Below the pieces are notes generated by a model. It was given only the letters and a program-made list of their open reading frames with translations. It did no database searches and was not told where the DNA came from. A program made the position numbers and the translations under genes. Below, piece after piece: positions 189-13,624 of a stretch of DNA of 64,000 nucleotides (position 1 is its first letter; each line of letters starts with the position of its first letter). Origin of the DNA: Octopus vulgaris (Eukaryota); the NCBI GenBank assembly GCA_951406725.2, contig OX597820.1, positions 50,716,001 through 50,780,000 on the forward strand, written 5' to 3'.

Positions 189-195
<7 letters not shown>

Positions 196-1690
196 TTAGG
201 GAATAAATCCAAATTTACAGGGAAAATAAAAATCAGATTTAGGATTAAATCCAATTTTATAGTAAAATATTATAAAATATTATTAGAGACAAAACCACTT
301 TTTTGTAAAACAAACAAGGAAAGACTTAATCAATACATAAAATTTTAATAAATAGTAAAAAAAACCGCCACTACAATCGTTTCTTGTCTTGATCGACAAT
401 CTTCAGGTGGACTTCAATCTAAAATATCAATATTTTAAAATATACAAATAATAATTTTAAAATAATTAAAGTATGAATGAAAAAATATAAATATATAATC
501 CATATATAACCTATATATAATCCATATATAATCAATATATAAACAATATATAAACTAAAATAAACCTATCAACAATTAAATATAAAATATAAAATATAAA
601 ACAAAACAAAAAAATAATAATAATATAATAATAAACTATATATACACCCATACACATATACCTAATTATATATAACCATATCTAACTACATACACTAAAC
701 CACACACCTATATATATATCCCTATACATTCACATAAAAACGTCTAGGCAACTATAAATAAATAAAATAGCTAAATACTTCAACACAATACTTATTCATA
801 CTCCCACACACACACTCATACAACCCACATTCACGCTCTAGAAAACGGACATCACTCAAAATTATGAACGGAGAAATGGAATAAATGGAATTAAAAATTA
901 TATTCACTTGGTAAAACGAACACTCCTTAAAAATTATGAATGAAACAATGCAATAAAACAACAGACATCGCAAATATACACAAATTACTACGAATTCCTT
1001 AACAAACCTACCATGATAAACCAAAACTCACAAAAACATATAATGATAAAATCTCCCTTTACTAAACTCTATAACATACCTATATAGCAATCCCCCTAAC
1101 CTAAACATTCACACACAAATACACACACGTAAACCACACACCCACGACATATACAAATACCCACACCACTTACACATACCAATACATACATGTAAACCTC
1201 AACATATACTCCAAAAACCCACTCAACCCCACACAGACAAATAAACACAAAAATTATGAATGGATTCTTTTATAAAACTACCATGATAAGCTAAAACTCA
1301 CAAAAAGAAATGATAAAACCTCCCTTTACTAAACACTATAACATACTTATATAGCAATCCCTTTAACCTATACATTCACACACAAAAACACACACGTAAA
1401 CCAAACACCCATAACAAATACAAACACCCACCCCACTCACACACACCCACAAGTACATATAAGCCTCAACATATACACCAAACAAAATTACTTTACCAAG
1501 GAACTTAACATATGTATAAAAAGTATAACCGCTCCGGAAACGAACATCTCTAAATTAATGAATGGAGAAATGGAATAAATGGAATTAAAAATAATATTCA
1601 CGTGGCAAAACGAACACCACTCAAAAATTATGAATGAAACAATGCAATAAAACAACCAACATCGAAAATAGACAAATTACCACGAATTCC

Positions 1691-1725
<35 letters not shown>

Positions 1726-4175
1726 ATGATAAACCAAAACTCTTAAAAACATATAACGATAAAATCTCCCTTTGCTAAACTCTATAACAAACCTATATAG
1801 CAATCCCCCTAACCTAAACATTCACACACAAATACACACACGTAAACCACAGACCCACGACTTATACACATACCTATACTAACTTATAAACCTCAATATA
1901 CACCAAAATCCACTCCCTCCACACACAGACAAATTAACACATACATCCCAAAACCTAAATAACAAACCCATATACACATTCACACACACAACACTCACAC
2001 ACGCAAAACACACACACACAACATATACATATACTCCCTCACATATACGCATATACATACTCACTAAACTCGATATATACAACAATATTTACACACCCAC
2101 ACTCATACAGATAAATAAATTATACAACTAAAAACTCACACACAATCTCATATACATAAACACTCCTATGAAAACAACATTAAGTACATCGTAATTAACC
2201 AGAATATCAAAAATAACAATATGACATAAGGATAAATAAAATACATACTTACAAGTCAGTTTCAAATTATAAAGTGAAATTAAATTCATAGCCGTTAAAA
2301 AAATCAAACCAAAATTACGTTACCATAGAAATAACTTATGTAAAAAAAGAATACGCGCCATGGAAAGTAAACGTCATTTAAAATTATGAATGGAGAAAAA
2401 GAATAAATGGAACTAAAAACTATATCCACGTGGCAAACCAACACTACTTAAAAAAATTTATTATGAATGGATTCTTTAAAAAACTACCATGAAAAATCAT
2501 TATATACATTTATGAGCTTTAGCTCACCTTAGCAGCTCTAACAAACAACTTGCAGCAACCCAAACCTATTCTCGATGCCTACCTCACTACTACACTATTC
2601 CACTCACAATTCCAAGCAACGCTAGTCCACCACCCGGTTACAATTCCCAACTCCACCCATTCATTCACAATTTCAACGACGTTCGCCTCCACAGCGCTAC
2701 ATATAAGCCTCAACATATACACCGGAGATTCACATCCGTGCGGATGGGTGAGAGTAATTCCTTAACAAACCTACCATGATAAACCAAAACTCAGAAAACA
2801 TATAATGATAAAATCTCCCTTTACTAAACTCTATAACATACCTATATAGCAATCCCCCTAAACTAAACATTCACACACAAATACACACACGTAAACCACA
2901 CACCCACGACATATACAAATACCCACACCACTTACACATACCAATACATACATATAAACCTCAACATATACTCCAAAACCCACTCAACCCCACACATACA
3001 AATAAACACAAAAATTATGAATGGATTCTTTTATAAAACTACCATGATAAGCTAAAACTCACAAAACAGAAAATAATAAAACCTCCCTTTACTGAACACT
3101 ATAACATACTTATATAGCAATCCCTTTAACCTATACATTCACACACAAAACACACACGTAAACCACACACCCATAACAAATACAAACACACACCCCACTC
3201 ACACACACCCACAAGTACAAATAAGCCTCAACATATACACCAAACAAAATTACTTTACCAAGGAACTTAACATATGTATAAAAAATATAACCGCTCTGGA
3301 AACGAACATCTCTAAATTAATGAATGGAGAAATGGAATAAATGGAATTAAAAATAATATACACGTGGCAAAACGAACACCACTCAAAAATTATGAATGAA
3401 ACAATGTAATAAAACAACCAACATCGAAAATAGACAAATTACCACAAATTCCCTAAAAAAACCATGATAAACCAAAACTCTTAAAACCTATAACGATAAA
3501 ATCTCCCTTTGCTAAACTCTATAACAAACCTATATAGCAATCCCCCTAACCTAAACATTCACACACAAATACACACACTTAAACCACAGACCCACGACTT
3601 ATACACATACCTATACTAACTTATAAACCTCAATATACACCAAAACCCACTCCCTCCCACACAGACAAATTAACACATACATCCCAAAACCTAAATAACA
3701 AACCCATATACACATTCACACACAAACACTCACACACGCAAAACACACACACACAACAGATACATATACTCCCTCACATATACGCATATACATACTCACT
3801 AAACTCGATATATACAACAATATTTACACACCCACACTCATACAGATAAATAAATTATACAACTAAAAACTCACACACAATCTCATATACATAAACACTC
3901 CTATGAAAACAACATTAAATACATCGTAATTAACCAGAATATCAAAAATAACAATATGACATAAGGATAAATAAAATACATACTTACATATCAGTTTCAA
4001 ATTATGAAGTGAAATTAAATTCTTAGCCGTTAAAAAAATCAAACCAAAATTACTTTACCATAGAAATAACTTATGTAAAAAAAGAATACGCGCCATGGAA
4101 AGTAAACGTCATTTAAATTTATGAATGGAGAAAAAGAATAAATGGAACTAAAAACTATATCCACGTGGCAAACCA
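189..4175 (-). repeat. Inverted copy of the element 3' end (pLTR plus tail)
   Basis: Reverse complement of 9718-13597, plus ~75 nt of extra tail matching ~5572-5649. ORFs 752..1024(-)/12845..13117(+) and 2550..2765(+)/11129..11344(-) are mirror copies. Junction ccacgtggcaaacca|tcgatgttgg at 4175/4176. Confidence 0.95.
368..410 (-). ncRNA. Minimal type I hammerhead ribozyme (inverted pLTR copy)
   Basis: Exact reverse complement of 5431-5473. Confidence 0.9.
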
Positions 4176-5649
4176 TCGATGTTGGTTGTTTTATTGCATT
4201 GTTTCATTCATAATTTTTGAGTGGTGTTCGTTTTGCCACGTGAATATTATTTTTAATTCCATTTATTCCATTTCTCCATTCATTAATTTAGAGATGTTCG
4301 TTTCCGGAGCGGTTATACTTTTTATACATATGTTAAGTTCCTTGGTAAAGTAATTTTGTTTGGTGTATATGTTGAGGCTTATATGTACTTGTGGGTGTGT
4401 GTGAGTGGGGTGGGTGTTTGTATTTGTTATGGGTGTTTGGTTTACGTGTGTGTTTTTGTGTGTGAATGTATAGGTTAAAGGGATTGCTATATAAGTATGT
4501 TATAGTGTTTAGTAAAGGGAGGTTTTATCATTTCTGTTTTGTGAGTTTTAGCTTATCATGGTAGTTTTATAAAAGAATCCATTCATAATTTTTGTGTTTA
4601 TTTGTCTGTGTGGGGTTGAGTGGGTTTTGGAGTATATGTTGAGGTTTATATGTATGTATTGGTATGTGTAAGTGGTGTGGGTATTTGTATATGTCGTGGG
4701 TGTGTGGTTTACGTGTGTGTATTTGTGTGTGAATGTTTAGGTTAGGGGGATTGCTATATAGGTATGTTATAGAGTTTAGTAAAGGGAGATTTTATCATTA
4801 TATGTTTTTGTGAGTTTTGGTTTATCATGGTAGGTTTGTTAAGGAATTCGTAGTAATTTGTGTATATTTGCGATGTCTGTTGTTTTATTGCATTGTTTCA
4901 TTCATAATTTTTAAGGAGTGTTCGTTTTACCAAGTGAATATAATTTTTAATTCCATTTATTCCATTTCTCCGTTCATAATTTTGAGTGATGTCCGTTTTC
5001 TAGAGCGTGAATGTGGGTTGTATGAGTGTGTGTGTGGGAGTATGAATAAGTATTGTGTTGAAGTATTTAGCTATTTTATTTATTTATAGTTGCCTAGACG
5101 TTTTTATGTGAATGTATAGGGATATATATATAGGTGTGTGGTTTAGTGTATGTAGTTAGATATGGTTATATATAATTAGGTATATGTGTATGGGTGTATA
5201 TATAGTTTATTATTATATTATTATTATTTTTTTGTTTTGTTTTATATTTTATATTTTATATTTAATTGTTGATAGGTTTATTTTAGTTTATATATTGTTT
5301 ATATATTGATTATATATGGATTATATATAGGTTATATATGGATTATATATTTATATTTTTTCATTCATACTTTAATTATTTTAAAATTATTATTTGTATA
5401 TTTTAAAATATTGATATTTTAGATTGAAGTCCACCTGAAGATTGTCGATCAAGACAAGAAACGATTGTAGTGGCGGTTTTTTTGACTATTTATTAAAATT
5501 TTATGTATTGATTAAGTCTTTCCTTGTTTGTTTTGCAAAAAAGTGGTTTTGTCTCTAATAATATTTTATAATATTTTACTATAAAATTGGATTTAATCCT
5601 AAATCTGATTTTTTTCCCTGTAAATTTGGATTTATTCCCTAATATTTAT
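4176..5649 (+). repeat. 5' partial direct pseudo-LTR
   Basis: 4176-~5572 is a near-identical direct copy of 12204-13597 and continues into the 5' UTR of the ORF. Confidence 0.93.
5431..5473 (+). ncRNA. Minimal type I hammerhead ribozyme
   Basis: ccac-CUGAAGA-uuguc(gaucaa)gacaa-GAA-AC(gauu)GU-A-gugg. All core nucleotides and three stems are present; predicted cleavage after A5469. Confidence 0.9.
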
Positions 5650-12876: not shown

Positions 12877-13458
12877 CGTAGTAATTTGTGTATATTTGCG
12901 ATGTCTGTTGTTTTATTGCATTGTTTCATTCATAATTTTTAAGGAGTGTTCGTTTTACCAAGTGAATATAATTTTTAATTCCATTTATTCCATTTCTCCG
13001 TTCATAATTTTGAGTGATGTCCGTTTTCTAGAGCGTGAATGTGGGTTGTATGTGTGTGTGTGTGGGAGTATGAATAAGTATTGTGTTGAAGTATTTAGCT
13101 ATTTTATTTATTTATAGTTGCCTAGACGTTTTTATGTGAATGTATAGGGATATATATATAGGTGTGTGGTTTAGTGTATGTAGTTAGATATGGTTATATA
13201 TAATTAGGTATATGTGTATGGGTGTATATATAGTTTATTATTATATTATTATTATTTTTTTGTTTTGTTTTATATTTTATATTTTATATTTAATTGTTGA
13301 TAGGTTTATTTTAGTTTATATATTGTTTATATATTGATTATATATGGATTATATATAGGTTATATATGGATTATATATTTATATTTTTTCATTCATACTT
13401 TAATTATTTTAAAATTATTATTTGTATATTTTAAAATATTGATATTTTAGATTGAAGT

Positions 13459-13501
13459 CCACCTGAAGATTGTCGATCAAGACAAGAAACGATTGTAGTG
13501 G
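13459..13501 (+). ncRNA. Minimal type I hammerhead ribozyme (3' pLTR copy)
   Basis: Identical to 5431-5473; predicted cleavage after A13497. Confidence 0.9.
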
Positions 13502-13593
13502 CGGTTTTTTTGACTATTTATTAAAATTTTATGTATTGATTAAGTCTTTCCTTGTTTTGTTTTGCAAAAAAGTGGTTTTGTCTAATAATATTT

Positions 13594-13624
<31 letters not shown>

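What the first reader, a model, noticed from the sequence alone, without database searches (positions are those of the whole stretch)
189..13597. Intact PLE with ~3.9-kb terminal inverted repeats: two 3' ends both joined outward to (TA)n
Seen: layout is [inverted 3' end 189-4175][partial direct pLTR][intact ORF][3' UTR/pLTR], and each outer boundary is an element 3' tail fused to (TA)n. Known: PLEs form tandem and inverted pLTR insertions, and the CxCx5Cx5C linker with C-terminal EN fits the Hydra clade. Inference: both strands of a cut palindromic (TA)n primed reverse transcription and the two cDNAs were joined at 4175/4176. The size, intact ORF and few differences between copies suggest a young, possibly active element that could also yield long dsRNA.
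Basis: partly seen in the sequence, partly recalled or inferred. Interest (0 to 1): 0.75.

Follow-up and report, generated by a model that had tools for sequence, protein, structure and literature searches.

The report
Twin-primed Penelope element with spliced minicopies
This is a young jumping gene in the textbook mirror-image layout of Penelope-like elements, and its many sister copies nearly always pair one long end with one short end and include hundreds of tiny intron-less versions, which likely means that each insertion is copied twice from one ordinary RNA, once onto each cut DNA strand.

Summary
The layout is real: inverted 3' copy (189-4175), partial pLTR, intact 837-aa RT/GIY-YIG ORF and 3' region, both ends fused to (TA)n. 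It is a Hydra-type Penelope-like element, and this arrangement is the published norm (Craig 2021 Fig. 2; Penelope-13_HM). The locus alone is ordinary.

The family is more informative. Copies end at two fixed sites about 80 nt apart, A and B. 72 of 73 typed inverted loci have one of each; here left is B, right is A. Short B arms tend to stop at A (7 of 11). The pLTR holds a 1,809-nt GT-AG intron. 584 exact genomic hits carry the spliced junction; those examined are mostly tiny palindromes. Both arms share splice state in 56 of 56 typed loci.

This favours two-site twin priming on one sense RNA over the published antisense self-priming idea.

Caveats: no read was seen across 4175/4176; this copy lacks its inferred start site upstream of the ORF; dsRNA is unsupported. 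The scan noted the one-long-one-short-end rule before in other genomes.

The parts
142..190 (.). Left (TA)n target tract
189..4175 (-). Inverted 5'-truncated copy (B arm): equivalent 9718 to 3' end site B, including the ~80-nt tail (189-266) that the right arm lacks
368..410 (-). Hammerhead motif, left arm copy
2253..2275 (-). Exon 1 / inferred start site on the left arm, pointing outward (second copy 3988-4010)
   Evidence: start site inferred
4175..4176 (.). Head-to-head junction, 0 bp overlap
4176..5707 (+). Partial upstream pLTR (equivalent 12204 onward): 3' part of the intron, acceptor AG at 5421-5422, hammerhead, sites A and B; lacks exon 1
5431..5473 (+). Type I hammerhead motif (three stems and core), predicted cut after A5469; cleavage untested
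   Evidence: parsed like the Hydra table in PMC8557442 File S2; not the minimum-energy fold; no Rfam hit
5560..5575 (+). Site A, first fixed 3' end (about 5568), followed by ATAATATT
5645..5660 (+). Site B, second fixed 3' end (about 5648-5658), followed by ATAATATT
5708..8221 (+). Intact 837-aa ORF: telomerase-like RT (DKT 128, YRDD 359), N-rich disordered insert (about aa 490-600, 41% Asn), CxCx5Cx5C linker (688), GIY-YIG endonuclease with CxxC (794) and CxH (823)
9395..12876 (+). 1,743-bp tandem duplication that makes the unit 8,028 bp; several other ORF copies have units of about 6.0-6.5 kb
11619..11641 (+). Exon 1 (23 nt); inferred transcription start at 11619 (duplicate copy 9883-9905)
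11642..13450 (+). 1,809-nt GT-AG intron in the pLTR (second donor 4 nt downstream), retained here and absent from the mini copies
13459..13501 (+). Hammerhead motif, right arm copy
13590..13616 (+). Right 3' end (site A, 13596) fused to (TA)n

Best explanation
This is one young insertion of a Hydra-type Penelope-like retrotransposon whose two arms end at two different fixed sites (B left, A right), likely because both strands of a cut (TA)n tract primed reverse transcription at those two sites on one unspliced sense RNA. Inferred steps: the RT-endonuclease nicks both strands; one 3' end starts at A, the other at B, 80 nt downstream. The B-primed cDNA either stalls at A or runs on behind the first, here for 4.0 kb, while the A-primed cDNA ran 9.4 kb through the ORF into the upstream pLTR. 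The two cDNA 3' ends were then joined head to head with little or no homology. When the template is the spliced RNA, both cDNAs run off its 5' end and give the tiny palindromes. Shown here: the anatomy, the two end sites, their pairing, the intron and the spliced copies. From the literature, for another PLE: two RT start sites bounding the tail and nicking of both strands. Not shown: the enzymology, the RNA itself, or whether the long template is linear or circular.
For: One A and one B end in 28 of 29 inverted loci from all exact hammerhead hits on contigs C1 and C2 (my tally of the output). Replicated in 20 of 20 further outward pairs and 24 of 24 typed spliced loci (2 more had an untyped arm): 72 of 73. 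Of 11 B arms that stop within 210 nt, 7 stop at 5551-5580, at site A (p about 2e-4). Splice state is the same on both arms in 56 of 56 typed loci: 33 both with intron, 23 both spliced at the same donor, none mixed. About 19 of these were picked by a pattern matching both arms; 9 loci had an untyped arm. The partner arm is at least as near as any other arm for one of the two arms in 27 of 29 pairs. Spliced junction: 584 exact hits, 0 in the reversed control (includes a sister subfamily), with two donors joined to one AG; 84 of 87 spliced arms matched the exon-1 template back to 11619-11634 only. Head-to-head overlaps of long arms are about 0-3 bp. Frangieh 2024 (PMC11167929, main text read): two RT start sites bound the tail and both strands are nicked and extended.
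Against: No read or listed contig spans this junction. The partner is strictly nearest for both arms in only 12 of 29 pairs, and gene conversion could also make arms alike. Here the arms differ at 18 places; one allele is shared by left and middle only and another by left and right only, which a single clean template does not explain. One B+B locus exists (L075), and 14 of 44 loci are single-ended. Frangieh saw no strand difference in start site in vitro, which does not by itself predict strict A+B pairing. The mini copies may partly amplify themselves, so 584 hits are not 584 splicing events. 0 of 19 ORF run-through copies have a spliced upstream pLTR, and in two the pLTR extends above the inferred start (L077, L079), so long copies need a read-through or circular template.
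Confidence: 0.68

Rival explanations
1. Two RNA molecules held by a dimeric protein, one primed at A and one at B, each on its own target strand.
For: A PLE protein is predicted to be a dimer (PMC11167929). The arms overlap by 3.9 kb here, which on one RNA needs strand displacement. Arms differ at 18 places.
Against: No mixed splice state in 56 typed loci. Short B arms stop at A. 14 of 18 left-arm alleles match none of 51 other loci, so they look private rather than drawn from another source copy.
Confidence: 0.15
2. One target-primed cDNA, with the inverted arm made by self-priming or fold-back, on an antisense template as proposed by Arkhipova 2013, and the tail arising during resolution.
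For: PMC3846280 (Discussion read) argues this from junction palindromes and intron retention. An 8-bp palindrome (CATCGATG) overlaps this junction. Long copies keep the intron.
Against: Spliced copies require a sense template. Fold-back of one cDNA cannot give a B tail that the other arm lacks, nor B arms that lie wholly downstream of A (L058, L072, L149, L167). Long-arm junctions have about 0-3 bp overlap.
Confidence: 0.08
3. Two independent insertions into the same TA tract, or an assembly fold-back, made this particular locus.
For: No listed contig bridges the junction in 4 public runs. The left arm has more private changes than the right (8 vs 1 in 2.27 kb).
Against: No TA or host DNA at the junction. 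Asymmetric break points, unrelated flanks, A+B rule obeyed. The left arm's nearest relative is its partner (9 vs 15 differences). Same build at 73 typed loci.
Confidence: 0.06

Closest known systems
Hydra-clade PLEs (Craig et al. 2021, PMC8557442; sections 3, 6, 11, 12, 15 and supplement passages read), e.g. Hydra-1_Obim, Hydra-2_Amil, Penelope-13_HM
   Same: C-terminal EN, DKT, CxCx5C linker, CxxC and CxH, no CCHH, hammerhead near the 3' end, (TA)n targets. Penelope-13_HM is listed with an inverted 5'-truncated copy. Fig. 2 legend describes this layout with a one-sided tail.
   Different: Unit 6-8 kb against 'generally <3 kb'; KWK for RWK; N-rich insert; tail about 80 nt against 30-40; 1.8-kb intron in the pLTR; spliced mini copies.
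Poseidon PAc of Anolis (Frangieh et al. 2024, PMC11167929; main text and start of methods read)
   Same: Two RT start sites bounding the tail; both strands nicked; AT-rich target.
   Different: PAc sites lie inside the ORF and are not homologous to the target. Here they lie about 140 and 55 nt upstream of the ATG and have 3-5 nt of ATA-type overlap with the TA tract. Pairing of one site per arm was not reported in the text I read.
Drosophila virilis Penelope (Schostak 2008, PMC2377424; Cervera and de la Pena 2014, PMC4209133; passages read)
   Same: Start site inside the repeat, short first exon, intron ending just before the hammerhead. Cervera also notes hammerhead pairs 100-700 bp apart on opposite strands in another species.
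   Different: Intron 75 bp there, 1,809 bp here. The passages read stress intron retention in genomic copies; here spliced copies are abundant.
Adineta vaga Penelopes (Arkhipova 2013, PMC3846280; passages and Discussion read)
   Same: Inverted pLTR with a tail on one end; N-rich ORF inserts.
   Different: Very low copy there, and an antisense self-priming model was proposed, which the spliced copies here contradict for short insertions.
LINE-1 twin priming (recalled, no call)
   Same: Both target strands prime on one RNA and the cDNAs join head to head.
   Different: In L1 the second site is variable and arms barely overlap; here both sites are fixed and arms overlap by kilobases.

Membership tests
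EN+ Penelope-like element | Single ORF with telomerase-like RT | tested here: met
   AlphaFold model pLDDT 82; top 5 Foldseek hits are telomerase RTs, best E 1.9e-9; YRDD at 359. No Pfam or PDB sequence hit.
EN+ Penelope-like element | GIY-YIG endonuclease | tested here: met
   C-terminal model matches the I-TevI catalytic domain, Z 10.1, rmsd 2.5, 90 aligned; next rows also GIY-YIG. Foldseek alone gave nothing significant.
EN+ Penelope-like element | pLTRs from partial tandem, optional inverted copy and tail | tested here: met
Hydra clade | C-terminal EN without CCHH; CxCx5C linker; CxxC and CxH | tested here: met
   Cysteine linker at 688, VVY/YIG core with one Cys, CYLC 794, CRH 823
Hydra clade | DKT motif and RWK motif | tested here: inconclusive
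   DKT present (128); RWK reads KWK here, while most homologs in the alignment have RWK or RWR
Hydra clade | Canonical hammerhead in the pLTR | tested here: met
   All stems and core parse at 5431-5473 as in the paper's table; cleavage not testable
Hydra clade | Insertion into (TA)n | tested here: met
   Nearly all fetched ends abut TA tracts
Hydra clade | Short unit, generally under 3 kb | tested here: not met
   Unit 8,028 bp here, about 6.0-7.6 kb in sister copies; a tendency in the paper, not a strict criterion
Hydra clade | RT phylogeny with reference Hydra, Neptune, Poseidon, Nematis | not tested
   Reference proteins were not available as tool-held sequences. Proxy: hits P0008 and P0009 (E about 1e-105, 35% identity) look close by eye to Hydra-2_Amil as printed in the supplement.

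The most novel reading that the evidence does not exclude
Penelope-like elements build their inverted ends by obligatory two-site twin priming on a single sense RNA, one fixed start site per target strand. Spliced mRNA yields only run-off mini-palindromes of the 5' leader, while full-length copies come only from unspliced read-through or circular RNA. This would explain the tail, the head-to-head repeats and intron retention together, and would overturn the antisense self-priming proposal.
Probability: 0.45. Interest if true: 0.72.

Novelty: new variant of a known kind. Interest (0 to 1): 0.5.

Why it matters
How PLEs form tandem and inverted ends, and why they keep introns, are named as open in Craig 2021 and Arkhipova 2013. 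This young family, with hundreds of near-identical copies in a contiguous assembly, gives a natural read-out: end pairing, splice concordance and stop positions all point to one sense RNA primed twice. It supplies exact sites (start 11619, intron, A, B) for an in vitro test. The single locus adds little beyond being a large, ORF-intact example.

Tried and rejected
B arms more mutated than A arms: seen in the first set (31 vs 7 private changes) but not in 15 new pairs (21 vs 27; 7 vs 7 loci); rejected. Cap-derived extra G at the start site: 4 of 7 arms starting at 11619 have a G before it, but I judged only one (L053) free of the partner arm; not claimed. Hammerhead cleavage as template 5' end: 1 of 19 run-through copies starts at 5469; not claimed. 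'Same hairpin after both ends' from earlier scan notes: both ends precede ATAATATT, but the local folds differ; inconclusive. Ends set by TA-likeness alone: 92 of 93 arms pass longer TA-like runs in the intron, but loci were found through the 3' end, so the control is weak. Rfam found no relevant family. No RNA holder on record was listed, and contigs give no strand or level, so nothing is said on expression or dsRNA. Junction lay on 4 runs showed no listed bridge; whether any run is the same individual is unknown. The remote protein-representative search had not finished and was not used. Literature: 'Penelope' + 'twin priming' gave 3 papers (listing only, none on PLE mechanism by title); the search for spliced genomic PLE copies gave 9 papers, none relevant by title. 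Arkhipova 2003 and Evgen'ev and Arkhipova 2005 were not read and may bear on novelty. PMC13282606 passages do not mention Hydra; its supplements were not seen.
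Full report
Observation. Self-comparison confirms the layout: 267-4175 is the reverse complement of 9718-13602 (98.9%), 4176-5574 repeats 12204-13602, and an uninterrupted 837-aa ORF lies at 5708-8221. Both outer ends join (TA)n. The central junction is blunt. The ends are unequal: the left arm carries about 80 nt more (to equivalent 5648, site B) than the right (equivalent 5568, site A). That, the asymmetric break points, 18 arm differences and unrelated flanks argue against an assembly fold-back. 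No listed contig from 4 public runs bridged the junction, so read proof is lacking.

Identity. Pfam and PDB sequence searches found nothing. The predicted structure's best matches are telomerase RTs, and the C-terminal domain matches the I-TevI GIY-YIG domain at Z 10.1. Motifs fit the Hydra clade as defined in PMC8557442: DKT, CxCx5C linker, CxxC, CxH, no CCHH; RWK reads KWK. A hammerhead parses at 5431-5473 like the paper's Hydra table. No tree was built. The unit (8,028 bp; about 6.0-7.6 kb in sisters) is far longer than the under-3-kb norm, and the ORF has an Asn-rich insert as in Adineta Penelopes. The host is a 2.8-Gb animal genome, probably a cephalopod by named homologs (inference).

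Is the layout new? No. Craig 2021 describes a full-length copy preceded by a partial tandem, an inverted 5'-truncated copy and a one-sided tail as typical, and lists a Hydra family with an inverted copy. Arkhipova 2013 shows the same with the tail on one inverted pLTR. In this genome an exact 42-nt hammerhead pattern has 431 hits. All 61 hits on C1 and C2 form 44 loci: 29 inverted, 14 single-ended, 1 fragment (my tally; single loci were read up to 9.5 kb on their 5' side). The family is young: 23 of 40 scored ORF matches are 99-100% identical over 901 bp, and 8 other fetched loci hold an open 820-851-aa ORF.

Two ends, one per arm. Copies end at A or B. Of the 29 inverted C1/C2 loci, 28 are A+B and 1 is B+B. 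This held in 20 of 20 further outward pairs and 24 of 24 typed loci from the spliced set, with 2 more untyped: 72 of 73. Among 11 B arms that stop within 210 nt, 7 stop at site A, as expected if a B-primed cDNA meets an A-primed complex on the same RNA. Frangieh 2024 showed for an Anolis PLE that two RT start sites bound the tail and that both strands are nicked and extended. Earlier scan notes report the long-plus-short-end rule in other genomes.

Intron and spliced copies. Many loci are palindromes of about 400 bp whose arms start with a 23-nt piece from 11619-11641 joined to 13451. The skipped 1,809 nt begin GTAAGT and end TTTTAG. A second donor 4 nt downstream is also used, and copies with a changed first donor use the second; both joints also appear in contigs of one public run. 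The junction has 584 exact hits, a sister subfamily included. 84 of 87 spliced arms matched the exon-1 template back to 11619-11634 only, which places a likely start site at 11619; a few copies of a diverged subfamily reach 50-240 nt higher. Both arms of a locus share splice state in 56 of 56 typed cases, about 19 of them chosen by a both-arm pattern. Splicing needs a sense RNA, so for short insertions this contradicts the antisense self-priming proposal. The mini copies may partly amplify themselves, so the count overstates independent events. None of 19 ORF run-through copies has a spliced upstream pLTR, and two extend above the start site, so long copies need an unspliced read-through or circular template.

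This locus. The left arm runs from equivalent 9718 to B, well above the inferred start, so it derives from a 3' region that follows the ORF, as does the A-ended right arm (inference). The left arm's nearest relative among 38 covering arms is its partner (9 vs 15 differences), and 14 of 18 left alleles match none of 51 other loci. Two alleles shared crosswise (left-middle, left-right) are unexplained; conversion is possible. The upstream pLTR starts inside the intron and lacks exon 1, so the intact ORF probably has no promoter of its own. The start-site copies on both arms face outward and would give same-sense RNA, so long dsRNA would need read-through from a flank; this is untested. A suspected excess of mutations in B arms failed to replicate.

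Verdict. The structure is real and known; the element is a long, intron-bearing Hydra-type PLE. The value lies in the family-level evidence for two-site twin priming on one sense RNA (confidence 0.68), which I did not find in print in the searches made; two older key papers were not read. Interest 0.5.

Noticed in passing
window 49111-50050: A second, unrelated inverted element: 404-bp arms at 98.5%, TA tract on the left, each arm with a CTGAAGA core (49195 +, 49967 -); possibly another PLE-type fold-back.
   Followed up: partly
window 13895-14052 and 14336-14493: 158-bp inverted pair (98%) around the TA tract at 14127-14188, just right of the element.
   Followed up: no
window 53023-55055 (-): Pif1 helicase ORF and an upstream ORF, likely a broken Helitron (Helitron label from own knowledge).
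   Followed up: no
window 61986-63413: 1.4-kb trinucleotide repeat tract.
   Followed up: no
window 1693-1723: A31 run in the left arm where the right arm has T7; found in no other fetched locus.
   Followed up: partly
L048-L049 (G000:C1:166322400-166338190): Nested inverted structure with three inversion junctions around an ORF piece; arms identical over 2.3 kb.
   Followed up: no
L056 (G000:C1:218252500-218259700): ORF-bearing arm begins at 5469, at the predicted hammerhead cut site; single case.
   Followed up: partly
L109, L110, L136: Spliced copies of a diverged subfamily that extend 50-240 nt above the inferred start site.
   Followed up: partly
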